Shown one piece after another: positions 14,218 to 27,920 of a DNA stretch of 64,000 nt; the stretch's first letter is position 1, and each line of letters starts with the position of its first letter. This DNA comes from Minisyncoccota bacterium. Its GTDB lineage: Bacteria > Patescibacteriota > Minisyncoccia > Phycocordibacterales > UBA9973. The position numbers and the translations under genes are program-made. The stretch spans positions 479,515-543,514 of the forward strand of contig JBAZVG010000001.1 in the NCBI GenBank assembly GCA_041661005.1, given 5' to 3'. Below the pieces are notes generated by a model that was not told where the DNA came from, made no database searches, and worked only from the letters and a program-made list of their open reading frames with translations.

Positions 14218-14446
14218 CTTGTCCTCTTATCTTAACCTTTGCGCGAACCTTTTTCGAGAATCAAATGAAGTAATGCGCACGCTCCGCGTGCATCATTTCT
14301 CGAAAGCAATTACTACGCTCTGATAATGTGGTAACTCAATGAACTCCGCCACGCGCGATTACGCGCGTCTGCCCTCGCCTCGCCACCGTTTCCATGCATA
14401 TATTATTTCGCGGGGGTTTCTTTTGATTTGGTATGGGTGGCGGGCG
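14218..14446. repeat. left terminal inverted repeat of island (GC-rich, about 229 bp)
   Basis: Plus strand here is the near-exact reverse complement of 25925-26152. Confidence 0.75.
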
Positions 14447-14940
14447 AGGTCAGGTTTCTTCAAAGAAGAAACGGCGAAATTCAAAATACAAATTCAAATC
14501 ATTGTCTCGGGCATTATACCATTTTTCTATTTTGGTGGTCACGCAAAGTTTTGAGGTGCACCCTCGGCATTCGCCTCGGGCATTTCCGCTAGGGCTACGA
14601 GTGCCTAGATGCCTATGAGCGGGCAAGCAAAATAACCGAACGGCTCAAATACCAGTAAATGAGCCGTTCACTCGATTGCCCGCAACTTCTTGGGGAGAGG
14701 AAGTTTCCTCTCCCCGGGTCGGGCTACTCTGGGATTACCCAGAGTTCTGCCCTCGCCATCCCCACTCTACGTTTTTCAATATTGTGTTTAGTGTGTAGCT
14801 TTCGCTTTCGAGAATGCATTTCAATTCGGGTCAGGCACTCGTCCTTTAGCCGTGGCCACCCTAGCGGAAATGCCCAAGGCGGAAAATGCAAATGCACTTG
14901 ACCCACCCACCCATTCGCGTGCAAATTTTCGCCGTGAGGA
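14446..14940 (+). ncRNA. GC-rich hairpin-dense noncoding segment (candidate structured RNA or recombination site region)
   Basis: GC far above the window average; nested hairpins gcgggcaa[gaacggctca..tgagccgttc]ttgcccgc, ggggagagg/cctctcccc and ctctggg/cccagag; long-range complement gggcatttccgctaggg (14579) with ccctagcggaaatgccc (14856). Confidence 0.3.
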
Positions 14941-14963: not shown

Positions 14964-15131
14964 TTATAAATCATCTTTCAATTCAATAGCTTCTTCTTCG
15001 TCTAGTCCTTCCGTATCCATAATTTCTTTTACATGTTCAGCTTCATCTTGATCCAGTCCGTGATTTTCCATAAGTTCCACAACTTCTTCGTCAATTTCTT
15101 CTCCATTTTCATTTTTAATTTCTTCATCCAT
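14964..15131 (-). CDS. tiny highly acidic protein (55 aa, MDEEIKNENGEEIDEEVVELMENHGLDQDEAEHVKEIMDTEGLDEEEAIELKDDL)
   Basis: Manual translation of the minus strand; below the ORF-track size cutoff; last gene of the island operon. Confidence 0.25.
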   Translation of the reverse strand: MDEEIKNENGEEIDEEVVELMENHGLDQDEAEHVKEIMDTEGLDEEEAIELKDDL

Positions 15132-15135
15132 TTTT

Positions 15136-15804
15136 TTATATTTCAGAATAAAATACTGAATGCCCAGTTTTTCCGTTCTGTTTTATTTTTCCTTCTTTCT
15201 CTAATTGTGAAAGGTATCTAGTTGCAGTTGCATCAGACACATGCAAAAACTTTTCTACTTCGTCGTTGGTGACTCGTGGTGAGCTTGTCGAACCATTTTT
15301 ATTTTCAAACAAAGACATGACACGATCTAGTTTCTTTCTTTTTCTGAATTGAATCGCATTTCTAGCTGTGATTAGAAGTTCGCGAGCTAGATTAGATTTA
15401 GGTTGCTCACTCACAGGCTTCGCCTGTTCGTTTTGAGAAGTTTCCGGTTCTTTCAACGGCTCATTTACTGGTATTTGAGCCGTTGGAGGTTCAATAGCTT
15501 GGACGGGTTCAAAAACTGACTCAATTGAGGGTTCATTTGTCCCGTTAGAGGTAGGATTTGCTTGCATATCCGTTGGCTCTAATGGGATTGCTTCTTCTGG
15601 TGTAGGGGTAGAATTTGAGGGTGGTATATTAGTACTTTCATCACTAAAACCCTCCCTAGAAGCTTCCGGGGCTTCAGGAAGCACTTCGACAGGCTCGGAA
15701 TCTATGGGTGGAATAGGTGCATCAGCCATAGGCTCTTGGGGGCTTGGTGGAATAGAGTTTTCTTCGGGAATTGGTTTTTGGGTTGTATTTTGTTCGTCGG
15801 ACAT
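15136..15804 (-). CDS. Pro/Glu-rich disordered protein with C-terminal winged-HTH
   Basis: Low-complexity PEPS-rich N-terminal 150 aa; C-terminal VSDATATRYLSQLEKEGKIKQNGKTGHSVFY is wHTH-like. Confidence 0.4.
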   Translation of the reverse strand: MSDEQNTTQKPIPEENSIPPSPQEPMADAPIPPIDSEPVEVLPEAPEASREGFSDESTNIPPSNSTPTPEEAIPLEPTDMQANPTSNGTNEPSIESVFEPVQAIEPPTAQIPVNEPLKEPETSQNEQAKPVSEQPKSNLARELLITARNAIQFRKRKKLDRVMSLFENKNGSTSSPRVTNDEVEKFLHVSDATATRYLSQLEKEGKIKQNGKTGHSVFYSEI

Positions 15805-15805
15805 A

Positions 15806-16681
15806 TTATTTCCCTAATTCTTCTAAATTAATGAACGGATTGGTATATTCTATACCTTTTGGTATAAATCTAATTGATTCTTCATAACATTTTTTTGCTT
15901 CCTCTGGCTTACCCGTCTCAGCAAATAATACCCCAATATTATTATATATATTTGAGTAATGAAGATTAGACTTTAATACAAGATAAAAAGAACTAAAATA
16001 TGCTGGGAGTATGTAGCGATTCATTTCTTGGTCATCATGTAAAGCAACACCCATCATTGGGTTGTCTTGAACAATTTTTTGTGCAGTTTCTCCCGTAGGA
16101 AATCTAAGTGCTCTTACTCTATCTTTAATAGCATTTTTATGAGCAATCCTCGTAGCTAAATCTACCCATCCTTCCTCTTTCTCGCCAGTATAATTAAAAT
16201 CTCTTCCTTTTAAATTAGTAAATTGTAATGGCTCATTTTTAATCTCCTCATAAACTTTTTGTCCGAGTATTTCTAGTGCTGCGTTATAGTTTTTTAATGA
16301 ATTTACTGTGTCCCCATTTAGCTTATATGTTAATGCCAAACTATTTAGTGTATCCACTATTTGAGTTCGAGAGATATTTTCTTTAGTTTGAATTACTATT
16401 TCTAGATACTTAATTGCTTTTTTATATTCTCCTTTCGTCTGGTAAATAATACCTAACTCAAAATTTAACTGACTGGAATCAGGATATTTTGAAATAGCTT
16501 TTTGGCAAACTTCTTCTGATTTATCTAAACGTCCCAACTTACGATTAACATGGACTAAAAAATACCAATAATCCATATCATCAATATATTCTGACTTAAT
16601 CGATATTAAGAAACTTTCAGCGGTGGAATAATCTTTATTTTTTATATAGTACTCAAGTTGTTGATGGTGTGTATCTGTCAT
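15806..16681 (-). CDS. tetratricopeptide-repeat protein
   Basis: Repeated TPR-like helices (YWYFLVHVNRKLGRLDKSEEVCQKAI, NFELGIIYQTKGEYKKAIKYLE and others). Confidence 0.5.
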   Translation of the reverse strand: MTDTHHQQLEYYIKNKDYSTAESFLISIKSEYIDDMDYWYFLVHVNRKLGRLDKSEEVCQKAISKYPDSSQLNFELGIIYQTKGEYKKAIKYLEIVIQTKENISRTQIVDTLNSLALTYKLNGDTVNSLKNYNAALEILGQKVYEEIKNEPLQFTNLKGRDFNYTGEKEEGWVDLATRIAHKNAIKDRVRALRFPTGETAQKIVQDNPMMGVALHDDQEMNRYILPAYFSSFYLVLKSNLHYSNIYNNIGVLFAETGKPEEAKKCYEESIRFIPKGIEYTNPFINLEELGK

Positions 16682-16694
16682 AAATTATTTTTAT

Positions 16695-17153
16695 TTACAC
16701 AACTTCTCCTAAACTAGAAACAAAAACTCCGACCGGCTCTTTCACTATTTTTACCTCAGTGATTACTAACGGTATGAAATTCTCGTCTGTTTTTGAAGAC
16801 TTTTCAGGGTCGCCTAATTTGCAAGTAAGTGCTACTCCCTCAATTCTTAGTAATATTGGGGAATCAGAAAAATTAACAACAACTGGCTGATTAGTTTGTT
16901 TTTGTATTTGCTCAGTAAGCGCTAATTTATTAATAAGCTTAAACTCTTGAAAAATATATATAAACACTTTTAAAACTTCGTCATTAAAATTAAACGAGGC
17001 AACCATTCCATTTATGTTAGCTGTAATACTCGAAGTATGATCTGGATATAATATTAAATCTAATGGAACAAAACTATCCGTAATTACAATCTTTCCATTT
17101 TTGGGAAGCCCAGTGTCTTTTATAAAGGAACCAAAATCTTTTTTGAATATCAT
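16695..17153 (-). CDS. hypothetical protein
   Basis: 152-aa ORF tightly packed between the TPR and ATPase genes. Confidence 0.35.
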   Translation of the reverse strand: MIFKKDFGSFIKDTGLPKNGKIVITDSFVPLDLILYPDHTSSITANINGMVASFNFNDEVLKVFIYIFQEFKLINKLALTEQIQKQTNQPVVVNFSDSPILLRIEGVALTCKLGDPEKSSKTDENFIPLVITEVKIVKEPVGVFVSSLGEVV

Positions 17154-17189
17154 AATTTTTTTATTTGTAAATTATTTTTCATTAGTTCT

Positions 17190-19541
17190 TTAATAATTTA
17201 AAGAGTATAAATAATCCATCATCTCAGTAGCAAAATTACGAACATCTTCATCGTTATTTGAAGTGAAAATATGAGAATCAGAATTTAGATTATTCCTAAA
17301 CCCATGAAGTTTTGTTTTTACTTCTTCTTTTCCCTCAAAAATTCCATCAATCATTTTTTCTAAACTACTACAATCTACTTTTTTATCTTGTATCTGTTTA
17401 GCAAAGATAGTTGGAAGGTATAAATTTTCTAAAAATGGCCTTAAATCCGTTTTTATAGATTCAGATTGTGATCTATTTATAAACTCATAAATTTTCATAA
17501 AAACTTTTTCATAATCACTCATAGTGTATACATTTCGTTCCGACAAAACTAAAGAACTAGTTGCATCATCTTTTTTGATTTTTAGATACTTTGTTGTTAT
17601 CTGTGAATCTTTTGTAATTTCACAAAATCTTTTTATAAAATTAGGGTAATGAGTTAATATTATAATTTGACTGACTTGACTTATCGTTTCTTTAAAAAGA
17701 TTTATACTATAAGTGGTTCTATTGTCATCAAAACTCGTCATTGGGTCGTCTAATATAATTACCATTTTCTCTTTTTCTGCTTGTTCTTTTAAGTCTATTT
17801 TAACCCAAAAAATAGCTAAGGCTAAAGTGCGTCTGTCTGATTCACTAAACACAGATTTTAATTGATCGTTAGATATTTTTACATTATGAAATTTTACTTT
17901 CAAAGAGTAGACGGGCATGTGTCCCTGATTATTAGTATCTTTTTCAAGGGTAAAATTCTTACTTCCAAGTTTTTTAAATAAATCATTTATTTGAGTAAAG
18001 TAATTTACTAAATACTGAGATTGATCTCCCTCCAAACGACTTTCTAACACAGAAATTTCTGCCTCTGATATAGTAATTTCTTGTTGTATTTTTATGTAAT
18101 TAATACAATCTTGGTCTTGGTCAATTCTTGCCTTTTTATATTCTAATTCTTCAATTTCACTTATTAAAAAATCGACACCCTGCTGAATCGTTACGATATT
18201 TTCGTACTGTTTTTTAAAAGCTTTTATTTTTACCGAAAGTTCATCAATTATTTCTTTTATATTTATAAGGGATTGGTTATATTCAAGATATATTGTTTTA
18301 AAATGTGAAAAGTCAATAATGTCCACTCTCTTATATGGGCACTTACTTTTTAGATCTTGACTTGATTCTATGTTTTTTAATATTTTGCCTTTTTCAACAC
18401 TTAAATCCTCTTCTTGTAGTAAATCTATGTTTGTTTGTAGTTCAATCAATTTAGCTTGAAAAATTTCGTCGCTTATAAATTCTTTGTATTTATTGAATCC
18501 TATTAGAACAGTTTGTAAAATTGTTTTTTGAGCGAAGGTAAAATTTTCAATTTCTCTATTTTTGCTTTCTAATTCTTTGTCAATTCTACTTATAAAATCA
18601 TTGTAAACCTCATCGAAATATGAATCATAAATATTTATTAAATCTTGAGCATTATGAAGAAATTGACCACAAAACGGACAACCATCTTTTGTTCTATCCT
18701 TACAATAATGTAAGCCTGCTTTTATCCAATTTTCAGCGTTATCTTTAGAAGAAAAATTGTCAAATAAATGTTTATTTAGCTTTACTAATATATCTTCCTT
18801 AATACTTGAGTAGTCCTCTTGTAGTAAAGTATTTATCATTTCAAGTAATTCTATAATAGTAAAAGTTGGTAAATAAAATTCGTTTGGCTCCTGTAATTGC
18901 GATATCTTTTGTGGCTCCTTTAAACGTTCTTGTTCCTTCTGTAATGCGATTTTCTTTTGAGGCAAAATATTTTCAATATTATCTTTTTCTAACCCCACAA
19001 TAGAAAATTCCAAGAATTTTATGATTTCAATATCTATCTTATCTTTTACGAAATTTGGTACTTTTGTCTTTAATTCTCTTTTTTTATCTCCTGTTTCTTT
19101 TTTCTTTTTTGCAATTTCTTTTGCAAGTTTTACGCTTTGCTCTCCAAGAATAAACTGGGTAAAGTTTTCCTTGTTTTCTCTTCCAATATTTAAACCAGTA
19201 AATAAATTTTTATGAATAAAATCAGTGTCAAAAACCTCTAAATACTTTGACAGATCATTTTGGGTCCAATTATCATGTTCAAACATGATATCGTTTTCTA
19301 TCTCTTCTTTAACAGAAAAAACCACCTTCTGTTGTCCTGTCTGTGCTGGAATTGTTTTTCTATCTTGAATAATTTTAGGATCATTGTCTTTTAAAGATTG
19401 GAAAATATCTGTCAAAGTAGTTTTTCCATAAGTATTAAAACCATAGATAAAAGTTAGTTTTTCAAAACCCAAAGAAGCTCCATTTGTGAAATTGGAAAAT
19501 GTACCTATATTTTTAATTTCTTTAATGCGAGCTATTTTCAT
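17190..19541 (-). CDS. AAA_13 / RloC-like Rad50-type ABC ATPase with coiled-coil zinc hook and possible C-terminal anticodon-nuclease-like domain
   Basis: N-terminal KLTFIYGFNTYGKTTL Walker A in an SMC-like context; central coiled coil with CPFCGQ; Walker B IILDDP; H-loop ILTHY; C-terminal LRPFLE...KLHGF resembles an R-x3-E...H triad. Confidence 0.5.
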   Translation of the reverse strand: MKIARIKEIKNIGTFSNFTNGASLGFEKLTFIYGFNTYGKTTLTDIFQSLKDNDPKIIQDRKTIPAQTGQQKVVFSVKEEIENDIMFEHDNWTQNDLSKYLEVFDTDFIHKNLFTGLNIGRENKENFTQFILGEQSVKLAKEIAKKKKETGDKKRELKTKVPNFVKDKIDIEIIKFLEFSIVGLEKDNIENILPQKKIALQKEQERLKEPQKISQLQEPNEFYLPTFTIIELLEMINTLLQEDYSSIKEDILVKLNKHLFDNFSSKDNAENWIKAGLHYCKDRTKDGCPFCGQFLHNAQDLINIYDSYFDEVYNDFISRIDKELESKNREIENFTFAQKTILQTVLIGFNKYKEFISDEIFQAKLIELQTNIDLLQEEDLSVEKGKILKNIESSQDLKSKCPYKRVDIIDFSHFKTIYLEYNQSLINIKEIIDELSVKIKAFKKQYENIVTIQQGVDFLISEIEELEYKKARIDQDQDCINYIKIQQEITISEAEISVLESRLEGDQSQYLVNYFTQINDLFKKLGSKNFTLEKDTNNQGHMPVYSLKVKFHNVKISNDQLKSVFSESDRRTLALAIFWVKIDLKEQAEKEKMVIILDDPMTSFDDNRTTYSINLFKETISQVSQIIILTHYPNFIKRFCEITKDSQITTKYLKIKKDDATSSLVLSERNVYTMSDYEKVFMKIYEFINRSQSESIKTDLRPFLENLYLPTIFAKQIQDKKVDCSSLEKMIDGIFEGKEEVKTKLHGFRNNLNSDSHIFTSNNDEDVRNFATEMMDYLYSLNY

Positions 19542-19543
19542 AA

Positions 19544-21052
19544 TTATTCTTCCCCTTCACCCAATTCTAATCTTTTTATCTGCGGCAAGGCCACCAATCC
19601 ACTCAAATCACCATACATACCAACTGTATTAGTAATTACTTTTTTAATTTGTTTTTCTCTTTCTGACCAAATTTTTTCGTAAGCTAACCTTTCTTTCTTT
19701 AATCCGTTATCCATACCTGTAAAAGCTTCAACTATTGCTTCTACTCTTTGTTTAAACTCTATACCTGTTAAATAAGCGTAAAGTATTTCCATTTTATCAT
19801 TTTTACCAACGGACATTGTTTTTTCCCTTGTTACAGATTCTAAATTTACTCGCAAGGCAGTTGCAAGAGCTGTAGCAAGTTTTATGTCACAAATCCACAC
19901 ACCATCACGAAAACCAAAGCCTTTAATGTCTCCTGGTAGCGTGATAGAAACTATAACAGCAATTTCAGCCTTCATAATCCTTTGATCATCTTTTAATTTT
20001 TGTATCCATCCTTCACTCCATGCTTTGGTCTTTTTTGATTCCCACACAATTTGACCACAATATTTACCAGATTGATTCTGAACCTTTTGTATGATATCGG
20101 CTCCACTTACTCCTTTCGGAACTGGAGATATTTCATCAAAAGGAAATTCAGATCTTAAAAGATCCTCCAACTCAAGCTCCAACACTTCTCCTTGTGTTTG
20201 TTGTGAACCCTGTTCAAGCTTACGAGAAAGTTCGTCTTTTGCCTTAGTAGCATCAGTTAAACGTTTCTCTAGTTGTGCAATAATATACTTCTGTTCTTCA
20301 TTTGCTTTTTTACTAGCTTCCTCTATTATTTGTTTTCTTTCTATATCCAACTGTCTTTGTTTTTCTAACTCAAAGTTTTGTTTATCTTCTTCAAGTTTAT
20401 TTTTCTCTTTGCGCAAATCCAGCTCTTTTTTGTTTGCTTCTTTCAGTTTGATATCTTTCTCTTCTAATTGTTCCTGAAGTATTTTCTTGTCTGCTTCCTT
20501 TTCTTTTTCTGCCTCCTCTATTTGTTTTAATAATTTTATAGAATCTCTCTCGCTTTGTTTTACGGCACGAGCAAAAGCTTCTTGCTCTATCCCTTTACGC
20601 TCAGCATCGATTATTTTTGCTTTTTCCACCTCAAAATTTTTCTTTTCATCCTCAAATTTCTGCCTACTTGCACGAGCTTTTAAAGATTCAGTGTTTGCCT
20701 CATCCAACTTTTTATCTTTTTCTTTCATTTGTTCTTCTAACAACTTAACTTCAGCTGCTGTTTTCTTTTCAGCTGCTGTTTGTGCTTCTTTCCATAGTGT
20801 AATTTTTTCCACTGCAAGTTTTTCTGCCACTTTTTTACTGACTTCACTTTGTGTGTTTTTCTGTAATTCTTCCAATTTTATTTTTTGTTCTTCTATTTCT
20901 TTTCTCTCTTTTGCCATTTCTATTTCCTTTAGCTTGTTTTCTTCACTAATTTCCTTCTTTATATTTTCTTCAATTTGATGCGTTAATACATCATCAATTG
21001 ATATTGCTGTTTTACAATTGGGGCAGATAATATTTTTTGTATCGTTTTTCAT
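19544..21052 (-). CDS. DUF2130-like coiled-coil protein with N-terminal zinc ribbon and C-terminal PD-(D/E)xK-like domain
   Basis: CPNCK at the N-terminus; about 250 aa of K/E-rich coiled coil; C-terminal GADIIQ...IVWESKKTK. Confidence 0.45.
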   Translation of the reverse strand: MKNDTKNIICPNCKTAISIDDVLTHQIEENIKKEISEENKLKEIEMAKERKEIEEQKIKLEELQKNTQSEVSKKVAEKLAVEKITLWKEAQTAAEKKTAAEVKLLEEQMKEKDKKLDEANTESLKARASRQKFEDEKKNFEVEKAKIIDAERKGIEQEAFARAVKQSERDSIKLLKQIEEAEKEKEADKKILQEQLEEKDIKLKEANKKELDLRKEKNKLEEDKQNFELEKQRQLDIERKQIIEEASKKANEEQKYIIAQLEKRLTDATKAKDELSRKLEQGSQQTQGEVLELELEDLLRSEFPFDEISPVPKGVSGADIIQKVQNQSGKYCGQIVWESKKTKAWSEGWIQKLKDDQRIMKAEIAVIVSITLPGDIKGFGFRDGVWICDIKLATALATALRVNLESVTREKTMSVGKNDKMEILYAYLTGIEFKQRVEAIVEAFTGMDNGLKKERLAYEKIWSEREKQIKKVITNTVGMYGDLSGLVALPQIKRLELGEGEE

Positions 21053-21079
21053 ATTTTTTAATTTTATTAATAAATTTTC

Positions 21080-24000
21080 TTAAACTGCTTTTGTCCCACG
21101 ACAATAAGGAAACTTTGAACATCCATAAAATTTGCCTCTCCTTCCATTTCTTAAAATCATTTTTGATCCACAGCGCGGACAATCTTTATCAGAAAGTATT
21201 GGCACTGGTCTATCATTTCTCGAAATTCGAGATAGACCTTTACAAGTCTTGCAAAAGCGTCCGTAGCCACGGATTAGAGTTGGGTCTTTAAAATCAACTA
21301 AATCCCTTATCTCGCGACATTTTGGACATTCTTTTTTATCTCCATTGTGCAAGCCCTCAATCGTATTCTGAATACCGTTTAAAACAGCATTGTTTTGTGT
21401 GCGATAATTTTTAAACAAACTCGTGATTCTTTCATTAAGCGTTGTAACAGGGTTAGAACCAACATTGAATTTGTTAATTCGCAAGAATTTATATCCGTAA
21501 CTCTCCAAAACTTTCTGACGATAAACATCATCTTCAGAATAATAGTTTTCATAATTAAACTCATTTGCCTCGTCGAGATCGTTAAAATGTTCTGTAAATC
21601 CATCATACTCAATGATAATCTTGTGTTCTTTTTGGTTTTCATCTTTATACACAAGTAAAAAATCAACTTTATAGTGAGGATGTTTATAAGTCCTATCAAG
21701 TTGTTTTAGATATTTTCCAATTTCAAATTGAGGGAAGAATTCAATATTTTCTTTATTATTTTTCCAAAAATCTGTATCATAAAACCATTTTAAAACCTTA
21801 GGTTCCATTTTTGATTTTTGATCCACTTCAGAAATTTCGTGTTCTTTCTTCGCTTCCTCAAGAATAAAATTATAATGTCTTAAAGCATCTCCAATTGAAC
21901 CTGTAAATTTATCAAGTGGCTTACTAAGCACAAAGTGTACAGTTTCTTTAGCCCGACTAAATCCAACATTGAGGCGTTGAACTTTTATTTTTCCATCTTC
22001 CTCACTATCAACGCTATTAAAATCTTTTATAAAGACACCCCACAATCTATCAGAGTTTTCATTTGCAACCATCGAATAGAAAATAATATCTCGTTCTTCT
22101 CCCTGACAAGTATCAAAAGTCATTATTTTTAACTTCAGATTTTCAAAGTAAAAATCTCGTTCAGGTAATTTACTGATGGCCTCCATAAGCAATTTCTGCT
22201 GATTGGTGTGTGGCGTGATAATACCTACACTTTCGGTCTTGTTGTTTTCATACATTATCTTTAATTGTCCAACTATAAAATCAATCTCGGCTTTATTACT
22301 ATTTCCAACTAGCTCGTCTTTCCCGTCGTGGTCAACGAAACTAAATTTAACAACATCAGCAATTTTTTTACCCCTAATCTTCATTACTTGAAGACTGTCC
22401 TGATAAAAATACTTATTCGAGTAAGAAATAATTTCTTTGTATCCACGAAAATGTTTCAAAAGTTGCGTGTTGTAATTTGTTATAAATTCAAAAAATTCTA
22501 GTATTGAGGTCTTGATGTCAAATTTCCCAAGCTTCACTATTTTAGAATCTTCTTCTGATACTTGATCGCGAAATACTTGCGCCAAGGAATTTAAGTACTC
22601 CCGATTTGTTTCAGACCGAGCTTGTGCCGCCTTAATGTTACTGAATTGTTTTCTATCCCCGAGAATAAGCACCTTTTTCGCTCGAATCAAAGCGGGAAAA
22701 GCTTGTGCAATACTAACTTGTGATGCTTCATCAATAATAACCAAGTCAAAAAGTCCTGCATGCAAAGGAATGTATTCTGCGTAATCTCTGATTCCGGCAA
22801 GTATGCAAGGGAAAGCGTCTTTGAGTTTAAGAAATTGCTCTTTCGGAAACTTCATTTTATTTTTAATAACTTCTCTTAAAGTTTCCGCATCTGCTTTGTT
22901 GTTATTATAAAAATCAATAAGGCGAGTATCTAAAACATGAGTAACTTGCGTAGTTACCAAAGTTTCCAACTCTTTCTTCTGTCCCATATAACTCAATGTC
23001 GGGATTAACCCGAATTTAGCAACTATGGAACCCTTAAGTATTGCGTAGCGTGTTGCTTTATCAAAGTCCAAGCTAGTCATTTTAACAAGCTTGCTGTCTA
23101 ACATTTCTGAAAAATTGTCTTTCGAGATTTTTAACTTTTTTATTGAATGAGGGTATGAATCTAATTCTTGCAAGAGCGATAAAAAGTCCGTCTCGAGAGA
23201 AAGTACCTTTTCTTTATTTTCACTAAAATTACTACCCGTCAATATTAGTTTAGATAAAATTTCAATATGATCAATCCCCAAATGTGAAATTGTTTTTGCT
23301 TGCTCTTTTAAGGCATTATAATAATCACAAATCTCTATAACTCGTTTAAAGTTTTTTATATTTTCATTAGGATTTTGAAAATCTGACAACGGAAATAGTT
23401 CCCTAAATGAGTTATTTAAAGTCTGAACCTTAGAACTGCTGAACAGGTATCCAAAAATAGGTATTCTGGTTTCATCATAAGATCGAGTCCACTTTTTGAG
23501 CTCGTTTAAGTCTTTGTGAGAAAAAACTTTGAAACGAGATAGTATCTGAACATCTTGATTAAATTTCAAAGAGACATCTTCCACAATTTGATAATAAGCG
23601 GTAAGAATACGTAATGTGTCTAAAAACATCTCACTACTTTTTAATGTTTCTAGTTTTACATTCAATATTTCTGATAAGTAATCGTTTTTAAGAATGTCGG
23701 GCAAAGATAATAATAAAGACCTTAGATCATCGAAAAAGACGACAGCGTTTTCATTCTCGGATAACTCATCAAGATCAAAATCATATTGCCTTGAAGAATA
23801 AAATTCCTCTAGCCCACAAAATTCAGTTATTTCCCGAAGATCAATATCAGAATACGCTAATGCTTCTACTTCAATATCTTCTTTCAAAGAATTCGATAAT
23901 TTGGAAATATTTTCCTCAATCGAAGAATAATCTTTTTGTACTGCTCTATGGTGAGTTTTAATTTTTTCTATAGAAGACTTTGCAAGAATTTGACCATAAG

Positions 24001-25642
24001 TATTCCCTGTTTTTCCAAGCCTTAAAATTGGATTTTGAAAATTCTCCTCATCAAAACGAACTCTATTCATAGTTTCAGTTATCTTGTCCTCAACAACATC
24101 AAGTGCTTCTTTTTTATCAGAAAGTACAAGTACTGATTGATGATTAAGAATTGCATCAAATATAATTGCGGTGATCGTATGACTTTTACCCGTACCCGGA
24201 GGGCCTTCAACTGTTATATATTTGCATCCATCTTTTCTTATTGCTGACAATATCTGTATTTGTTCACTGTTAAGAGGAATCGGGCTTGTTGAGACAAGTT
24301 TATCGGGAACCGATGTATCATCCCACTCCCTTTCAACTTCAGGATTTATAGGCTTTGGATTTTTGTGAATAAAATCATCAACTAATATGTTGAATATCTT
24401 GGCAAGTTCTCCTTCTCCATTACTTAGCTGTTGCAAGATTTCCTCATAGTCATTTACAAGGGCTTCATCTGATTTATCAAATAACGAAAGATACACTGAG
24501 TTAGAAGTTCTAACGCTTAGGCTTTTTGCTTGTTGGGGGTCTTTTGAATCAAGGTCAATATTTTTATTTAACCCAAAAAGATTTGTGATTTCATTAAGAA
24601 TTTTTTCAAGTGTATCATTAACACGCTCTGTTTCTTGCGATAAATAAATAATGCGTTCAGTAATACTTTTAAGATTACCCTTTGCACCAGTTTCTTTGTT
24701 GTACTCTTGCACAATAAACTCAAGAGCTTTTTTGTTTATGTATATTTGAGAATCAAATTCAATATGAAATATATCGTTATCCCTCTTTAGAGAAAATGGT
24801 GTATAAAAGATTGGATATTTTACTTTATTAAAACTAATATCGCAGAAATAAAGATAGAATTCTTGTTTATCTAAAATTGCTCTGTTTTTATCAATTTCAA
24901 AAAGTTCGCTGAACAAATCTCCGACTTGAAACGACTCAAAAAAGTTTGTGATAGTGTTTTTTGTATCATTTAAGTCAATAACTGATTTAAGCTCTTTTTG
25001 AATATTAACTTTCTGTTTAGAAATTAAAACTTTCAAAAGTTCAGAAACTTTATTTTCGGTGATATTTAAAAAAACTTCGGCTAGCTCTTCTTCCATTAAA
25101 AATATATCGTTCTCGTCGCCAATACCAAGACTTTCTATTGATTTTTCAATACTACTGACAAATGGAAGGACTAGGAATGTTTTGATATGTAATGAAACTG
25201 CTTCAAGGGTTATGGTCAAAGCCTTCTCGTATTCTTTTGAATACAGGGTCGCTGATTTTTCAAGATCATCAGTTATGGCATTAATTAACTCATTGATTTG
25301 AGAACTTTGAATTTTACCAACTTGCAAAGTTATTAGATCTAAAAGATTTTTTGGAAGATTACTACGATATACTCCTTTACTGATTGTACTTAAAACACTC
25401 TTGTCAAAACCGTGAGTAACTAATTTCCATATATCCTTTGTGAAAGATGGATATTTTGAAAGATTTATGCCGACAAGCAAATTATCGTTAGTTCTATATT
25501 TGACTGATCGTTTTGGATTTTTTCTCTTATGAAAATCTGTCTCAAGAAAATCCATGAAATACTTAGCAACCTCTTTAACAAAGGCGAGATTGCCAGTAAG
25601 GCTAGTGTCTAATCTTTTTTCTTGTGAATTATTTTCATTCAT
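21080..25642 (-). CDS. SF1 (Upf1/Dna2-like, AAA_11/AAA_12) helicase fused to DUF559/Vsr-like endonuclease and topoisomerase-type C4 zinc ribbon; N-terminal DUF4011-like region
   Basis: GPPGTGKSHT, DLVIIDEASQ, LILGDRKQ, TFDTCQGEERDIIFYS; KVDFLLVY..IIIEYDGFTEHF..YGYKFLRIN; CPRCGSKMILRNGRRGKFYGCSKFPYC. Confidence 0.65.
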   Translation of the reverse strand: MNENNSQEKRLDTSLTGNLAFVKEVAKYFMDFLETDFHKRKNPKRSVKYRTNDNLLVGINLSKYPSFTKDIWKLVTHGFDKSVLSTISKGVYRSNLPKNLLDLITLQVGKIQSSQINELINAITDDLEKSATLYSKEYEKALTITLEAVSLHIKTFLVLPFVSSIEKSIESLGIGDENDIFLMEEELAEVFLNITENKVSELLKVLISKQKVNIQKELKSVIDLNDTKNTITNFFESFQVGDLFSELFEIDKNRAILDKQEFYLYFCDISFNKVKYPIFYTPFSLKRDNDIFHIEFDSQIYINKKALEFIVQEYNKETGAKGNLKSITERIIYLSQETERVNDTLEKILNEITNLFGLNKNIDLDSKDPQQAKSLSVRTSNSVYLSLFDKSDEALVNDYEEILQQLSNGEGELAKIFNILVDDFIHKNPKPINPEVEREWDDTSVPDKLVSTSPIPLNSEQIQILSAIRKDGCKYITVEGPPGTGKSHTITAIIFDAILNHQSVLVLSDKKEALDVVEDKITETMNRVRFDEENFQNPILRLGKTGNTYGQILAKSSIEKIKTHHRAVQKDYSSIEENISKLSNSLKEDIEVEALAYSDIDLREITEFCGLEEFYSSRQYDFDLDELSENENAVVFFDDLRSLLLSLPDILKNDYLSEILNVKLETLKSSEMFLDTLRILTAYYQIVEDVSLKFNQDVQILSRFKVFSHKDLNELKKWTRSYDETRIPIFGYLFSSSKVQTLNNSFRELFPLSDFQNPNENIKNFKRVIEICDYYNALKEQAKTISHLGIDHIEILSKLILTGSNFSENKEKVLSLETDFLSLLQELDSYPHSIKKLKISKDNFSEMLDSKLVKMTSLDFDKATRYAILKGSIVAKFGLIPTLSYMGQKKELETLVTTQVTHVLDTRLIDFYNNNKADAETLREVIKNKMKFPKEQFLKLKDAFPCILAGIRDYAEYIPLHAGLFDLVIIDEASQVSIAQAFPALIRAKKVLILGDRKQFSNIKAAQARSETNREYLNSLAQVFRDQVSEEDSKIVKLGKFDIKTSILEFFEFITNYNTQLLKHFRGYKEIISYSNKYFYQDSLQVMKIRGKKIADVVKFSFVDHDGKDELVGNSNKAEIDFIVGQLKIMYENNKTESVGIITPHTNQQKLLMEAISKLPERDFYFENLKLKIMTFDTCQGEERDIIFYSMVANENSDRLWGVFIKDFNSVDSEEDGKIKVQRLNVGFSRAKETVHFVLSKPLDKFTGSIGDALRHYNFILEEAKKEHEISEVDQKSKMEPKVLKWFYDTDFWKNNKENIEFFPQFEIGKYLKQLDRTYKHPHYKVDFLLVYKDENQKEHKIIIEYDGFTEHFNDLDEANEFNYENYYSEDDVYRQKVLESYGYKFLRINKFNVGSNPVTTLNERITSLFKNYRTQNNAVLNGIQNTIEGLHNGDKKECPKCREIRDLVDFKDPTLIRGYGRFCKTCKGLSRISRNDRPVPILSDKDCPRCGSKMILRNGRRGKFYGCSKFPYCRGTKAV

Positions 25643-25646
25643 AAGT

Positions 25647-25853
25647 TTATTTCAAAAGTTCATTAGTAGAAACATTTAATGCTTTTGCTAACTTTGCAAT
25701 TGTCGAAAGCGTTGGGTTTGTTTTGCCACTTTCAATATTACTAATAAAACCACGACTAACACCAAGGGAACGAAAAATATCGCCTTGCGTTAAGCCCTTG
25801 CTGATTCTGATGCGTTTCATGTTTTTGCCAAGCTTTACCGACTCAGTTTTCAT
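25647..25853 (-). CDS. XRE-family HTH transcriptional regulator
   Basis: LTQGDIFRSLGVSRGFISNIESGKTNP HTH_3 motif; start taken at the internal Met (MKTES), because the 5' extension runs into the inverted repeat. Confidence 0.6.
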   Translation of the reverse strand: MKTESVKLGKNMKRIRISKGLTQGDIFRSLGVSRGFISNIESGKTNPTLSTIAKLAKALNVSTNELLK

Positions 25854-25877
25854 TATCCACAGTATAGCTCTTGCTAC

Positions 25878-25886
25878 ATTATACCA
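25878..25886 (-). promoter_or_regulatory. extended -10 element TGgTATAAT upstream of the XRE gene
   Basis: Reverse complement reads tgtggtataat about 25 nt upstream of the ATG. Confidence 0.4.
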
Positions 25887-25924
25887 CAATATTATATTAT
25901 AATGTAATAGATGGAATATACCCA

Positions 25925-26152
25925 TCGCCCGCCACCCATACCAAATCAAAAGAAACCCCCGCGAAATAATATATGCATGGAAACGGTGGCGAGGCGAGGG
26001 CAGACGCGCGTAATCGCGCGTGGCGGAGTTCATTGAGTTACCACATTATCAGAGCGTAGTAATTACTTTCGAGAAATGATGCACGCGGAGCGTGCGCATT
26101 ACTTCATTTGATTCTCGAAAAAGGTTCGCGCAAAGGTTAAGATAAGAGGACA
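25925..26152. repeat. right terminal inverted repeat of island
   Basis: Reverse complement matches 14218-14446. Confidence 0.75.
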
Positions 26153-26164
26153 AATTGAGACATC

Positions 26165-26265
26165 AGTGAAAAAATCGGTCGCGCGCTTGCGCGCAATAAT
26201 GGAAAGGGGGTGGGCGAATTCCGAACCCATCTTCTCCGCAAATGCGAATTCGGTGGGTGGGCAAG
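26165..26265. repeat. inverted repeat copy flanking the recombinase gene (partner 27735-27835)
   Basis: Reverse complement of ttgcccacccaccgaattcgcatttgcggagaag...ccattattgcgcgcaagcgcgcgacc is present at 27735-27835. Confidence 0.65.
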
Positions 26266-26320: not shown

Positions 26321-27871
26321 ATGAACAAACCAAAATATTTTCTATACGCGCGAAAGTCAACGGAAGATGACGACAAACAAGTCATGAGTATTGAAGCTCA
26401 ACTTTTTGAGCTTCGTGAATTCGCGCGTAAAGAAAATCTGCAAATTCTTGAGGAATTTACAGAATCAAAAAGCGCAAAGAAACCTGGTCGTGAAAAATTC
26501 AGCGTGATGATGGGTAAAATTGAAAGTATGGACGGTGTAGGTATTCTCGCTTGGCATCCGGATCGTTTAGCGAGAAATAGTATTGACGGTGGACGCATCA
26601 TTTACGCTGTGGACACTACCAAAATAGTTTCTTTACGCTTTCCAACATTTTGGTTTGAACCCACCCCGCAAGGGCTGTTTATGTTGCAAGTGGCGTTCGG
26701 GCAATCCAAGTATTATTCCGACAACCTCAAGCAAAATGTTGAGCGAGGAATCCGCCAAAAATTAAGACGTGGCGAATGGCTAGCCTTGGCTCCTCGTGGC
26801 TTTGTGAATAATCCAAAAACAAAAAATATTGAACCCGATCCGGTGGTGGCAAGAATAATTGTGCAAGCATATAAAGAATTCGCCACGGGAAAACATAATT
26901 TTCCAACGCTTTCAAAATTTTTGGCGGATTTAGGCATGGTCGGAAAAAATGGAACGCCACTTTACAAATCTGCCGTCAGTAATTTGCTTTCCAATAAAGC
27001 ATACATCGGTTTGGTAAAGCATAAAAATGAATGGCATGCCGGCAGTTTTACGCCAATTATTTCTCCCGATTTATTTGAAGCCGTGCAGAAACGTTTGAAA
27101 GAACGAGCAAGGCCTCGCAAAACAAAAGTTGGACACAATTTTCCTTTTACTGGACTTTTTCGTTGTGGTGAATGTAATTGTATGATTTCAGCACAATGGG
27201 CGAAAGGTCGCGGAGGTTTGTACCGGTATTATCGCTGTACGAAAAAAGCAGGAGAAAATTGTTCACAAGGATATTTGCAAGAAAAATTGCTCGTCTCTCA
27301 AGTAAAGGAACGACTTCAACAAATCGCACTTCCCGACGAATGGACCAACTGGATGCTGAAACAAACTGACACATGGGAAAAAGAAGAAAAGTTTTCGTCG
27401 GGAAGTAATCTCGGACAAATCAAAGACGATGAGCAAGTAATACAGCAAAAGCTCGACGATTTAATTACGCTTTATCTCGATGGCGATATTCCGAAAGAAA
27501 ATTATCTCGCCAAAAAGGACGAGCTTTTGCTGAAAAAAGTCTCGCTCACGAAAAAAATTGATTCTGCCCGACACGAGAGAAATAATTGGGTCGAACCCTT
27601 GCGGGAATGGATTTTAGATATGAAAAAAGGTGCCGAATTGGTTTCGTCTTCCGATTTTTACGAAATTCGTGATTATTTGAAAAAAATCGGAACGAACCCT
27701 CGGATGCACGACAAATCCGTCTCTGTCTCATTTTGCCCACCCACCGAATTCGCATTTGCGGAGAAGACGGGTTCGAAATTCGCCCACCCCCTTTCCATTA
27801 TTGCGCGCAAGCGCGCGACCGATTTTTTCGCTGAAGTTTCGTCTTGTCCGCCTGCTACGATTCGAACGTAG
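26321..27871 (+). CDS. large serine recombinase (site-specific integrase/invertase)
   Basis: N-terminal resolvase catalytic domain YARKSTEDDDKQVMSIEAQ, recombinase domain, zinc ribbon CGECNC..YYRC and coiled coil; 516 aa; the 3' end overlaps tRNA-Ile. Confidence 0.7.
   Translation: MNKPKYFLYARKSTEDDDKQVMSIEAQLFELREFARKENLQILEEFTESKSAKKPGREKFSVMMGKIESMDGVGILAWHPDRLARNSIDGGRIIYAVDTTKIVSLRFPTFWFEPTPQGLFMLQVAFGQSKYYSDNLKQNVERGIRQKLRRGEWLALAPRGFVNNPKTKNIEPDPVVARIIVQAYKEFATGKHNFPTLSKFLADLGMVGKNGTPLYKSAVSNLLSNKAYIGLVKHKNEWHAGSFTPIISPDLFEAVQKRLKERARPRKTKVGHNFPFTGLFRCGECNCMISAQWAKGRGGLYRYYRCTKKAGENCSQGYLQEKLLVSQVKERLQQIALPDEWTNWMLKQTDTWEKEEKFSSGSNLGQIKDDEQVIQQKLDDLITLYLDGDIPKENYLAKKDELLLKKVSLTKKIDSARHERNNWVEPLREWILDMKKGAELVSSSDFYEIRDYLKKIGTNPRMHDKSVSVSFCPPTEFAFAEKTGSKFAHPLSIIARKRATDFFAEVSSCPPATIRT
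27735..27835. repeat. inverted repeat copy (partner of 26165-26265); encodes the C-terminus of the recombinase
   Basis: See the partner repeat at 26165-26265. Confidence 0.65.
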
Positions 27872-27920
27872 GACCCTCTAGGTATAAGCTAGATGCTCTA
27901 ACCAACTGAGCTACAGGCGG
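27847..27920 (-). tRNA. tRNA-Ile(UAU)
   Basis: Reverse complement CCGCCTG-TA-GCTC-AGTTGGTTA-GAGC-A-TCTAG-CTTATAC-CTAGA-GGGTC-CTACG-TTCGAAT-CGTAG-CAGGCGG-A; Ile-type D-arm; anticodon TAT. Confidence 0.65.

What the first reader, a model, noticed from the sequence alone, without database searches (positions are those of the whole stretch)
19544..21052. DUF2130-like coiled-coil protein with putative PD-(D/E)xK C-terminal domain
It has an N-terminal CPNCK zinc ribbon, about 250 aa of extreme K/E-rich coiled coil, and a C-terminal globular domain containing GADIIQ..(x)..IVWESKKTK, a D...ExK-like arrangement. Its antisense strand gives Ser-rich junk ORFs (20091-20978), confirming low-complexity coding. 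The assignment to DUF2130 is from memory of the family pattern.
Basis: partly seen in the sequence, partly recalled or inferred. Interest (0 to 1): 0.55.

Follow-up and report, generated by a model that had tools for sequence, protein, structure and literature searches.

The report
DUF2130 nuclease on a defence island
This gene encodes an ordinary member of the uncharacterised DUF2130 family, a long charged helical protein ending in a restriction-enzyme-like nuclease domain; it sits between a giant helicase and an ABC ATPase on a small mobile element, which points to a role in defence against foreign DNA.

Summary
ORF 19544-21052 (-) encodes 502 aa and hits Pfam DUF2130 (PF09903) at E=1.4e-64. 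The C-terminal domain models as an alpha-beta-beta-beta-alpha-beta core, with D319...E338-x-K340 invariant in 151/151 diverse relatives. Its fold matches Mrr-type and other PD-(D/E)xK nucleases.

Two details need correcting. The N-terminus carries only one CPxC knuckle, which is half a zinc site and not a four-ligand zinc ribbon. The K/E-rich helix shows only local heptad patterns, and it contains an 87-aa tandem duplication.

DUF2130 was already listed as a PD-(D/E)XK family of unknown function (Steczkiewicz 2012), so this is a new member of a known kind.

The context adds more. In 76 genomes the gene has a strictly polar neighbourhood: hsdM upstream, an OLD/GajA/AriA-like or AAA_13 ABC ATPase immediately downstream in 21/72 loci, then hsdS and hsdR. 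Here it lies 2 nt upstream of an AAA_13 ATPase (PADLOC candidate PDC-S06) and 27 nt downstream of a 1520-aa SF1 helicase. All three are cargo of a 13.6-kb serine-recombinase element inserted at tRNA-Ile.

The most likely function is a dimeric defence DNase, probably working with the ATPase. That function is inferred, not shown.

The parts
19544..21052 (-). DUF2130-family protein gene (502 aa), the subject of the finding
   Evidence: ORF. PF09903 at E=1.4e-64. The closest relative, at 98% aa identity, is in Ca. Nomurabacteria GW2011_GWE1_32_28.
20999..21034 (-). N-terminal beta-hairpin with a single CPxC knuckle (residues 7-18; C10, P11, C13). This is half a zinc site.
   Evidence: C10/P11/C13 are invariant. 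One CPxC occurs in 128/139 diverse relatives, and never two. Strands 7-9 and 16-18 appear in the model. Only non-significant half-matches to zinc-ribbon models were found.
20249..20998 (-). Long K/E-rich helical region (residues 19-268)
   Evidence: AlphaFold helices 19-90 and 102-268. 43% K+E. Heptad pattern is only local.
20513..20773 (-). Helical repeat module 1 (residues 94-180)
   Evidence: 41% identical over 87 aa without gaps to residues 181-267. Score 172 against a shuffle mean of 60.7, sd 8.0.
20252..20512 (-). Helical repeat module 2 (residues 181-267). The ~417-aa relatives have only one such module.
   Evidence: The length classes and the ~85-aa gap are visible in the alignment.
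20186..20224 (-). Nearly invariant linker motif RKLEQGSQQTQGE (residues 277-289), modelled as disordered
   Evidence: S283 147/151, Q287 146/151, G288 149/151, E289 147/151. pLDDT is below 50 for residues 267-291.
19886..20188 (-). PD-(D/E)xK nuclease core (residues 289-389). Candidate catalytic residues are E292, D306, D319, E338 and K340.
   Evidence: D306, D319, E338 and K340 are 151/151 invariant and E292 is 150/151. Alpha-beta-beta-beta-alpha-beta topology with pLDDT about 90. Fold matches.
19625..19885 (-). C-terminal three-helix subdomain (residues 390-476) with conserved R401, Y427, F433, E454 and W462
   Evidence: It is part of the PF09903 match.
17190..19541 (-). Downstream gene, 2 nt after the DUF2130 stop: a 783-aa AAA_13 ABC-type ATPase that matches PADLOC candidate PDC-S06. 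It carries one mid-protein GCPFCGQ motif.
   Evidence: PF13166 at E=5.4e-37. PDC-S06 at E=2.8e-193. Junction sequence. CxxC motif.
21080..25642 (-). Upstream gene, ending 27 nt before the DUF2130 start: a 1520-aa SF1 (Upf1-like) helicase with a weak Vsr/MTES_1575 nuclease match and C-terminal zinc ribbons
   Evidence: AAA_11, AAA_12 and Zn_ribbon_Top1 hits; MTES_1575 at E=2.2e-4, below cut-off. Partial hits to MkoC, PDC-S37, Hhe and ProA over the helicase core only. Junction sequence.
25647..26033 (-). HTH_3 (Cro/C1-type) regulator at the head of the same-strand gene array
   Evidence: PF01381 at E=7e-17. Homologues sit directly upstream of DUF2130 in L050 and L066.
15136..17153 (-). Three further same-strand genes: 152 aa (no hits), a 291-aa TPR protein, and a 222-aa protein with a weak winged-helix match
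   Evidence: They are co-linear and 100% identical in the independent contig L092.
26321..27871 (+). Large serine recombinase of the element
   Evidence: Resolvase, Recombinase and Zn_ribbon_recom domains.
14219..14447 (.). Left arm of a 229-nt near-perfect inverted repeat, forming the left end of the 13.6-kb element. An 8-bp TCTTGTCC direct repeat lies at 14217-14224.
25925..26264 (.). Internal 340-nt segment. 25925-26153 is the inverted partner of 14219-14447, and 26148-26264 is the inverted partner of 27733-27849.
27733..27920 (.). Right end of the element: a 117-nt inverted-repeat arm (27733-27849), the 8-bp direct repeat TCTTGTCC (27842-27849), and tRNA-Ile(tat) at 27846-27920 (-)

Best explanation
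The gene encodes a typical DUF2130 protein. It has an N-terminal single CPxC knuckle, then about 250 residues of charged helix (here lengthened by an 87-aa duplication), a nearly invariant QGSQQTQGE linker, and a C-terminal metal-dependent PD-(D/E)xK nuclease domain with an intact E/D...D...ExK site. It is cargo on a 13.6-kb serine-recombinase element inserted at the 3' end of tRNA-Ile. There it is the middle gene of a tightly packed array: SF1 helicase-nuclease, DUF2130, AAA_13 ABC ATPase. I infer that it is a DNA-cutting effector of an anti-mobile-element defence module. Two (or more) chains would pair along the helical region, with the two N-terminal CPxC half-sites jointly binding one zinc, so that two nuclease heads can cut both strands. 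The ABC ATPase translated right behind it would act as sensor or regulator, as in other ATPase-plus-nuclease defence pairs. What is shown: family membership, the fold, conservation of the catalytic residues, the gene order and its recurrence, and the mobile-element setting. What is inferred: nuclease activity, DNA as substrate, dimerisation through zinc, partnership with the ATPase, and a defence role.
For: Family and fold. Catalytic residues are invariant in 151 representatives of clusters at 50% identity.

Polar neighbourhood in 76 GTDB genomes: an ABC ATPase (AAA_15/AAA_21 of OLD/GajA/AriA type, or AAA_13) is at +1 in 21/72 loci. HsdM occurs only at -1 to -3 (22 loci), HsdS mostly at +1 to +4 (16 of 18 hits), and HsdR at +3 to +6. 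Only 1 such hit occurs among 434 genes at offset 6 or more. 33/76 loci have one of these within three genes. Other neighbours are Fic, RhuM, Bro-N, GmrSD and serine recombinases.

The DUF2130 to AAA_13 pair recurs in different surroundings: L055, L068, L028, L012, L086 and L088. In L088 it stands alone between divergent genes.

In the window the gaps are 27 nt upstream and 2 nt downstream. The AAA_13 partner matches PADLOC PDC-S06 at E=2.8e-193.

Mobile setting: GC is 0.29-0.33 in the island against about 0.40 outside. There is a serine recombinase, inverted repeats, 8-bp direct repeats and a tRNA-Ile.

The gene behaves as a swappable cassette. The Nomurabacteria relative shares 94% nucleotide identity only over 19542-21064 and has different neighbours.

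The family is rare in phages (7 of 50,697 records, all predicted Helicobacter prophages) and sits in TA-, TIR- and helicase-rich regions of plasmids.
Against: No experiment on any DUF2130 protein was found. Only 4 papers in the searched library mention the name, and none gives a function. The protein matches no PADLOC or NCBIfam model.

About 70% of loci have no ABC ATPase at +1. Partner types (AAA_13 versus AAA_15/21) are intermixed on the DUF2130 tree, so there is no sign of co-evolution with one partner. Close AAA_13 relatives also occur without DUF2130 (L089, L090).

The C-terminal domain is unusually conserved for a defence gene: 55-98% tblastn identity between the 81 best GTDB loci and 59-89% over the C-terminal 228 aa in alignment A2.

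PDB fold matches do not reach E<=1e-3. The zinc-mediated dimer is pure inference, and heptad periodicity is weak.
Confidence: 0.55

Rival explanations
1. It is a housekeeping-type recombination or repair nuclease analogous to RmuC, which also has an N-terminal helical region followed by a PD-(D/E)xK domain. It would process DNA secondary structures or recombination intermediates, and its position next to defence genes would be incidental.
For: The overall architecture resembles RmuC, and both families are listed in the PD-(D/E)XK catalogue. hhalign placed the DUF2130 linker and first helix (QGSQQTQGE...) against the RmuC stretch KGDNKTQGNWGE. The domain is very highly conserved across phyla.
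Against: The RmuC comparison is not significant: probability 0.2 and E about 0.3, with both a shallow and a diverse DUF2130 profile. Pfam gives no RmuC hit even at E<=10. The gene lies on a mobile element. It was exchanged as a single-gene cassette. It has a strictly polar neighbourhood of R-M genes and OLD-like ATPases, not of repair genes.
Confidence: 0.15
2. It is a stand-alone toxic nuclease that stabilises the mobile element (addiction or abortive-infection type). Its activity would be held in check by a neighbouring regulator, and it would be functionally independent of the helicase and the ATPase.
For: Most loci (about 70%) have no ATPase at +1. In a Bradyrhizobium plasmid it follows a RelE/ParE toxin gene and an HTH gene in the same orientation. 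In L050 and L066 it directly follows the element's HTH regulator. It moves as a single-gene cassette.
Against: The +1 ABC ATPase is the single most frequent neighbour, with tight or overlapping spacing. No small antitoxin-like gene is consistently adjacent.
Confidence: 0.2
3. It is an accessory subunit of Type I restriction-modification enzymes, for example an alternative or auxiliary cutting module recruited by HsdM/HsdS. In this window it would be an orphan copy.
For: HsdM lies within three genes upstream in 22/76 loci, and the order hsdM, DUF2130, (ATPase), hsdS, hsdR never varies.
Against: No Type I R-M genes were seen in the parts of the window that were annotated. 11 of the 21 DUF2130+ATPase pairs have no R-M gene within three genes. 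Other unrelated genes (Fic, RhuM, Bro-N) occupy the same slot in Type I operons, which suggests a permissive insertion site and not a shared function.
Confidence: 0.07
4. It is a non-catalytic structural or tethering protein with a degenerate nuclease fold.
For: Long helical region. The top PDB hit, Rep15, is a non-enzymatic protein with this fold.
Against: D306, D319, E338 and K340 are invariant in 151/151 diverse relatives and E292 in 150/151. That is the signature of an active site under selection.
Confidence: 0.03

Closest known systems
Pfam DUF2130 (PF09903; COG4487), listed in the PD-(D/E)XK phosphodiesterase superfamily by Steczkiewicz et al. 2012 (PMC3424549)
   Same: Full-length match to the family model. 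All family-wide invariant residues are present, with the same N-terminal CPxC plus helix plus C-terminal domain layout as 128/139 diverse members.
   Different: This copy belongs to the longer (~500 aa) class, with an extra 87-aa helical module. The family itself has no assigned function.
RmuC (PF02646), E. coli putative recombination-limiting protein
   Same: Works-like resemblance only: an N-terminal helical region followed by a PD-(D/E)xK domain with helical C-terminal extensions, and a Gly/Gln-rich motif just before the first core helix.
   Different: No significant sequence or profile similarity. RmuC is a chromosomal gene in E. coli, between udp and ubiE. DUF2130 here is mobile-element cargo.
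ABC-ATPase plus nuclease defence pairs: Septu PtuA/PtuB, PARIS AriA/AriB, Gabija GajA/GajB, OLD-family nucleases
   Same: The genes at +1 of DUF2130 match Old, AriA, GajA, mad3, AbiLi and HEC-01A models. The layout of a nuclease gene adjacent to an ABC ATPase gene in defence islands is the same.
   Different: The nuclease partner here is DUF2130, which is in none of the PADLOC models, and it precedes the ATPase. Some partner ATPases already carry their own TOPRIM nuclease (7/71). No functional test exists.
PADLOC candidate PDC-S06 (single-gene AAA_13 ATPase) and the RloC/PrrC class of AAA_13-like ATPases embedded in Type I R-M loci (the RloC/PrrC part is from my own knowledge)
   Same: The downstream gene is a near full-length PDC-S06 match. 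It has one mid-protein CxxC, as I recall for the RloC zinc-hook insert (for the motif). Embedding in Type I R-M loci is seen for DUF2130+AAA_13 in L028 and L012.
   Different: PDC-S06 is defined as a single gene. Here, and in L055, L068, L086 and L088, it is preceded by DUF2130, but not in L089 or L090. Anticodon-nuclease activity was not examined.
Rad50/SbcC zinc hook (from my own knowledge)
   Same: A single CPxC(G) motif at the end of a long helical arm, which in Rad50 pairs with the same motif of a second chain around one zinc.
   Different: In DUF2130 the motif is at the extreme N-terminus, not at the apex of an antiparallel coiled coil. There is no ATPase head in the same chain, and the analogy is untested.

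Membership tests
DUF2130 (PF09903) | Match to the family HMM above Pfam's gathering score | tested here: met
   218.3 bits against a cut-off of 26.7, E=1.4e-64, profile positions 4-241 of 255
DUF2130 (PF09903) | Family-wide invariant residues and the usual architecture (single N-terminal CPxC, helical spacer, C-terminal domain) | tested here: met
   D306, D319, E338, K340, G314 and G317 are 151/151 invariant. CPxC occurs in 128/139 diverse relatives. The window protein has all of them.
PD-(D/E)xK nuclease superfamily | Alpha-beta-beta-beta-alpha-beta core, with an acidic residue at the start of strand 2 and (D/E)xK in strand 3 | tested here: met
   AlphaFold model m1e859c69f705 (numbering converted to the full-length protein): helix 285-302, strands 307-310, 320-325 and 331-340, helix 348-360, strand 364-369. 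D319 and E338-S-K340 are at the expected places.
PD-(D/E)xK nuclease superfamily | Structural similarity to known members | tested here: met
PD-(D/E)xK nuclease superfamily | Metal-dependent phosphodiesterase activity | not testable with these tools
   Needs biochemistry
Zinc ribbon | Two knuckles supplying four zinc ligands within one chain | tested here: not met
   There is only one CxxC, no second pair in any of 139 relatives, and His25 is not conserved. Pfam zinc-ribbon models match only their first half, at E 0.05-0.3.
Canonical coiled coil | Heptad (3.5-residue) periodicity of hydrophobic residues along the helix | tested here: inconclusive
   The global power at period 3.5 is not above shuffles. 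Local a/d contrast of 0.5 or more occurs only around residues 99-141 and 192-230. LIVMF content is 20-26%.
RmuC (PF02646) | Sequence or profile similarity to RmuC | tested here: not met
   No Pfam hit at E<=10. hhalign probability 0.2. The RmuC profile was shallow (84% identity or more), so remote homology is not excluded.
Any PADLOC v2 defence system protein | Match of the DUF2130 protein to a PADLOC model | tested here: not met
   0 families at E<=0.01
PDC-S06 (for the downstream neighbour) | Full-length match to the PADLOC PDC-S06 model | tested here: met
   E=2.8e-193, residues 3-780 on profile positions 2-778 of 784
Hhe / Mokosh / ProA helicases (for the upstream neighbour) | Full-length match above the curated cut-off | tested here: not met
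   Only the helicase core (about residues 940-1240) matches. NCBIfam scores are 142 and 110 bits against cut-offs of 1500 and 2000.

The most novel reading that the evidence does not exclude
DUF2130 plus the ABC ATPase translated immediately behind it (AAA_13/PDC-S06 here, OLD/AriA-like AAA_15/21 elsewhere) would be a widespread, so far unnamed two-gene anti-phage module that inserts preferentially between hsdM and hsdS of Type I R-M operons. Its effector would be a nuclease that dimerises through an intermolecular zinc site formed by two N-terminal CPxC half-sites, at the end of a helical arm whose length varies in 87-aa steps. On this reading the PADLOC 'single-gene' candidate PDC-S06 would, in part of its range, be half of a two-gene system.
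Probability: 0.3. Interest if true: 0.6.

Novelty: new member of a known kind. Interest (0 to 1): 0.35.

Why it matters
By itself the gene is one more member of a large family (more than 4000 clusters at 50% identity) that Pfam and the 2012 PD-(D/E)XK catalogue already classify as a predicted nuclease. The value lies in the context, which suggests a testable function for a family that has none. The gene order is strictly polar (hsdM, DUF2130, ABC ATPase, hsdS, hsdR). The pairing with defence-type ATPases recurs. The gene behaves as a cassette on serine-recombinase elements in small-genome Patescibacteria. If the pair defends against phages, it would add a new nuclease effector to the ABC-ATPase defence systems and would redefine a PADLOC candidate. 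The single conserved CPxC at the tip of a modular helix would be a simple model for zinc-mediated nuclease dimerisation.

Tried and rejected
1. A sequence search of the PDB with the protein and with a family profile found no solved relative. The weak N-terminal matches to C2H2 fingers (E 0.08-0.8) were dismissed because the His ligands are not conserved.

3. Homology to RmuC was tested three ways: Pfam at E<=10, and hhalign with a close and then a diverse DUF2130 profile. None was significant. The homologue search for RmuC returned only sequences at 84% identity or more, so the RmuC profile stayed shallow. No RmuC gene was present in any fetched locus.

4. The idea that DUF2130 is tied to this particular helicase was rejected. 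tblastn (E<=1e-5) matched the window helicase in only 3 of the 81 fetched loci: a true homologue in L005, and L001/L002, two copies of one place whose Hhe-like helicase is only 24% identical.

5. A heterotypic zinc hook between the CPxC of DUF2130 and the CPFCGQ of AAA_13 was considered and down-weighted. The AAA_15/21 partners have no CxxC, while the DUF2130 motif is conserved regardless of partner.

6. Co-evolution of DUF2130 with partner type was tested. Partner types are intermixed on a neighbour-joining tree.

7. A search for a known RNA in the ORF-free 14.2-15.1 kb stretch found no Rfam family at gathering score. The stretch has no nucleotide similarity to other loci.

8. Literature searches for DUF2130, PF09903, COG4487, rloA/rloB and PDC-S06 gave no functional data.
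Full report
**1. The observation**

The motifs quoted are present: CPNCK at residues 10-14, GADIIQ at 317-322 and IVWESKKTK at 335-343.

Residues 27-270 are 43% Lys+Glu, and AlphaFold models residues 19-90 and 102-268 as continuous helices. The two antisense ORFs (20091-20477 and 20487-20978) are real. They are Ser/Phe-rich, which is the trivial mirror image of AAR/GAR codons.

The gene is certainly real. More than 6000 homologues score E<=1e-5. The C-terminal domain alone matches 4293 clusters at 50% identity in an exhaustive HMMER search. The nearest relative, at 98% aa identity, is from Candidatus Nomurabacteria GW2011_GWE1_32_28, so the window comes from a Patescibacteria (CPR) genome.

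**2. The interpretation: family and fold**

Pfam PF09903 (DUF2130) matches at E=1.4e-64, with 218 bits against a cut-off of 26.7. A model of the last 228 residues has mean pLDDT 79, about 90 in the core. Its order of elements is helix, three strands, helix, strand, which is the restriction-endonuclease core. D319 opens strand 2 and E338-S-K340 closes strand 3.

I aligned 151 sequences: the window protein plus 150 representatives of clusters at 50% identity. D306, D319, E338, K340, G314 and G317 are invariant, and E292 is 150/151.

Foldseek against viral predicted structures gives nine hits at E<=1e-3. They include Mrr-type endonuclease domains and a 'PD-(D/E)XK nuclease superfamily protein', with Holliday-junction resolvases and VRR-NUC proteins further down the list.

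The 2012 PD-(D/E)XK catalogue already lists DUF2130 (COG4487) as a member with unknown function. Only four papers in the searched library mention the name, and none assigns a function.

**3. Corrections to the description**

- **The 'zinc ribbon' is half a site.** There is one CPxC on a small beta-hairpin (strands 7-9 and 16-18). Of 139 diverse relatives with a full N-terminal region, 128 have exactly one CxxC and none has two, and His25 is not conserved. Pfam zinc-ribbon models match only their first knuckle, at E 0.05-0.3. A motif this conserved that cannot bind zinc alone suggests a site completed by a second chain. That is inference.
- **The 'coiled coil' is not proven.** Hydrophobic periodicity at 3.5 residues is not above shuffles for the whole helix. 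Convincing heptad windows occur only around residues 99-141 and 192-230.
- **The helix contains an internal tandem duplication.** Residues 94-180 and 181-267 are 41% identical over 87 residues without gaps, scoring 172 against a shuffle mean of 60.7, sd 8. This explains the two length classes in the family, about 417 and about 500 aa.
- **The linker is conserved but disordered.** A nearly invariant motif, RKLEQGSQQTQGE (residues 277-289), links the helix to the nuclease domain and is modelled as disordered.

**4. Surroundings in the window**

The gene is the middle of a same-strand array:

| Coordinates (-) | Gene | Evidence |
|---|---|---|
| 25647-26033 | HTH_3 regulator | |
| 21080-25642 | 1520-aa SF1 helicase: AAA_11/AAA_12, weak MTES_1575 nuclease match, C-terminal Top1-type zinc ribbons | |
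| 19544-21052 | DUF2130 | |
| 17190-19541 | 783-aa AAA_13 ATPase | |
| 16695-17153 | 152 aa, no hits | |
| 15806-16681 | 291-aa TPR protein | |
| 15136-15804 | 222 aa, weak winged-helix match | |

The helicase stop is 27 nt before the DUF2130 start. The DUF2130 stop is 2 nt before the ATPase start.

The ATPase is a near full-length match to the PADLOC candidate PDC-S06 (E=2.8e-193). The papers found list PDC-S06 only as a prediction. The helicase matches MkoC, PDC-S37, Hhe and ProA models only over its helicase core, far below the curated cut-offs. DUF2130 itself matches no PADLOC or NCBIfam model.

**5. The island is a mobile element**

- GC falls to 0.29-0.33 between 16 and 26 kb, against about 0.40 outside.
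- A large serine recombinase (26321-27871, +) lies beside the array.
- A 229-nt near-perfect inverted repeat (14219-14447 and 25925-26153) brackets the cargo.
- A 117-nt, 93% inverted repeat (26148-26264 and 27733-27849) brackets the recombinase gene. The two repeat pairs abut.
- The same 8 bp, TCTTGTCC, occurs at 14217-14224 and 27842-27849. The right copy overlaps the 3' end of tRNA-Ile(tat) at 27846-27920.

This describes a 13.6-kb insertion at the tRNA. Joining its ends would recreate a second inverted copy of the 340-nt segment 25925-26264.

Related DUF2130 loci that carry a serine recombinase show the same habit. L005 has a 112-nt perfect repeat 11.5 kb apart. L066 has a 156-nt repeat 5.8 kb apart. 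L050 has several repeats of 334-386 nt. Assembly artefact therefore seems unlikely. What the repeats do is open.

An independent Logan contig (L092) is 100% identical over 15732-22126.

**6. Context across genomes**

I fetched 80 GTDB loci, called genes crudely, clustered the neighbours and named them with Pfam and PADLOC. The pattern is strongly polar:

| Neighbour | Position relative to DUF2130 | Count |
|---|---|---|
| HsdM | -1 to -3 only | 22 loci |
| ABC ATPase | +1 | 21/72 loci |
| HsdS | mostly +1 to +4 | 16 of 18 hits |
| HsdR | +3 to +6 | 13 hits |
| Any of these | offset 6 or more | 1 of 434 genes |

Of the 21 ATPases at +1, 17 are AAA_15/AAA_21 of the Old/AriA/GajA/mad3 type (in the Pfam scan of +1 genes, 7 of 71 have an OLD-like TOPRIM domain) and 4 are AAA_13. 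In all, 33 of 76 loci have one of these families within three genes. Other recurrent neighbours are Fic, RhuM, Bro-N, GmrSD and serine recombinases.

One caveat applies. The family HMMs were built from the near neighbours themselves, so very divergent members further away could be missed.

The DUF2130 to AAA_13 pair recurs in different surroundings: L055, L068, L028, L012, L086 and L088. In L088 it stands alone between divergent genes. Two of the four informative close AAA_13 relatives lack DUF2130 (L089, L090). Partner types are also intermixed on the DUF2130 tree. The partnership is therefore frequent but facultative.

The Nomurabacteria relative shares 94% nucleotide identity with the window only over 19542-21064, which is the ORF plus or minus 12 nt. 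Its neighbours are different: a DUF4011/Hhe-like helicase upstream and an unknown 584-aa protein downstream. The gene has moved as a single cassette, and in both places it landed behind a giant SF1 helicase-nuclease.

DUF2130 is almost absent from phage records (7 of 50,697, all predicted Helicobacter heilmannii prophages). It is present on 45 plasmids, mostly Bradyrhizobium. In the one plasmid inspected it follows a RelE/ParE toxin gene and an HTH gene, near TIR, TerB-N, AAA and DEAD-helicase genes.

**7. How it most likely works**

Shown:
- an intact, strongly conserved PD-(D/E)xK site;
- a conserved single CPxC at the far end of a modular helix;
- operon-like spacing to an ABC ATPase;
- a defence-island, mobile-element setting.

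Inferred:
- The protein is a metal-dependent DNase.
- It pairs through its helical region, with the two CPxC half-sites sharing one zinc. This would give two heads able to cut both strands. The Rad50 hook is the analogy, recalled from my own knowledge.
- The ATPase behind it senses or licenses the attack, as in the Septu, PARIS, Gabija and OLD pairs.

I put about 0.55 on the overall 'defence nuclease' reading and about 0.3 on a true two-gene system. A heterotypic hook with the GCPFCGQ motif of AAA_13 is possible here. It cannot be general, because AAA_15/21 partners lack any CxxC.

**8. Rivals**

- **An RmuC-like repair or recombination nuclease (0.15).** The architecture is similar, but there is no significant sequence link, and the context is mobile and defence-like.
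- **A stand-alone toxic or addiction nuclease of the element (0.2).**
- **A Type I R-M accessory subunit (0.07).** This is weakened by the many R-M-free loci, including this window.
- **A non-catalytic scaffold (0.03).** This is contradicted by the invariant active-site residues.

**9. Verdict**

The novelty class is 'new member of a known kind', and interest is modest at 0.35. The most useful output is a concrete, testable hypothesis for DUF2130 (a defence nuclease, often paired with an ABC ATPase and inserted between hsdM and hsdS), together with the description of the serine-recombinase element that carries it.

Noticed in passing
window 14217-14447, 25925-26264, 27733-27849: The DUF2130 island is bracketed by long inverted repeats. 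A 229-nt near-perfect pair lies 11.5 kb apart, and an abutting 117-nt 93% pair flanks the serine recombinase gene. An 8-bp direct repeat, TCTTGTCC, marks both ends of a 13.6-kb unit, and the right copy overlaps the 3' end of tRNA-Ile. Circularising the unit would recreate a second inverted copy of the 340-nt segment upstream of the recombinase gene. The mechanism (integration, inversion or both) is unresolved.
   Followed up: partly
L005 2699-2810 / 14323-14434; L066 8257-8412 / 14250-14405; L050 (several, 334-386 nt); L069 6517-6610 / 8057-8150: Other Patescibacteria loci with a serine recombinase beside DUF2130 also have 94-386-nt, 94-100% identical inverted repeats. These enclose either the recombinase plus HTH plus DUF2130 cargo, or the recombinase alone. 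This looks like a family of elements and not an assembly artefact.
   Followed up: partly
window 14448-15135: A stretch of about 690 nt inside the element's left end has no ORF of 100 aa or more and has higher GC than the cargo. It contains internal inverted repeats (14572-14594/14859-14881, and 14639-14668 paired with 15455-15484 inside the wHTH gene). It has no Rfam hit and no nucleotide similarity to other fetched loci.
   Followed up: partly
window 19542-21064 vs L002 9989-11511: The Ca. Nomurabacteria GW2011_GWE1_32_28 genome shares 94% nucleotide identity with the window only across the DUF2130 ORF plus or minus 12 nt. The flanking genes are unrelated, although in both genomes a giant SF1 helicase-nuclease lies immediately upstream. 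This is a clean single-gene cassette exchange.
   Followed up: yes
window 17190-19541 (-): The AAA_13 ATPase (PADLOC PDC-S06) has a single mid-protein GCPFCGQ motif that is conserved in all AAA_13 partners of DUF2130 (L012, L028, L055). It recalls a Rad50/RloC-type zinc hook. In the C-terminus the stretch FRNNLNSDSH was noted as possibly HEPN-like but was not tested.
   Followed up: partly
window 21080-25642 (-): In the 1520-aa helicase, about 450 N-terminal residues match no family. It also has an Upf1-like SF1 core, a sub-threshold MTES_1575 (Vsr-like) nuclease match, and three C-terminal CxxC motifs (at residues 1439, 1464 and 1488), one Zn_ribbon_Top1 match covering the last. It fits no named defence helicase (Hhe, Mokosh, ProA) over its full length.
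   Followed up: partly
window 25925-26033 and 14339-14447: The first 36 codons of the annotated HTH_3 ORF lie inside the inverted repeat and are duplicated at the other end of the element, where they open a 71-aa ORF. The peptide does not look protein-like, so the true HTH start is probably further downstream.
   Followed up: no
76 GTDB loci (L002-L081): The slot between hsdM and hsdS in Type I R-M operons holds DUF2130 alone, DUF2130 plus an OLD/AriA-like ATPase, or Fic, RhuM or Bro-N genes, always in the same orientation. It appears to be a permissive insertion site for accessory defence genes.
   Followed up: partly
L016, L018, L020, L021, L024, L032 (gene at -1): One clade of DUF2130 genes (Bdellovibrionales and Patescibacteria MAGs) is consistently preceded by a DUF5671 membrane protein of about 385 aa, and not by defence genes.
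   Followed up: no
BK070121-BK070128 (e.g. L084 6506-7774): The only phage-database hits for DUF2130 are seven predicted Helicobacter heilmannii prophage records, where the gene lies among hypothetical genes near a ParA fragment. It may be host or island DNA included in the prophage prediction.
   Followed up: no
window 10446-10533 (-) and 10637-10726 (+): Two divergently oriented tRNA-Ser genes (anticodons act and gct). RecG (11597-13936) lies between them and the element.
   Followed up: no
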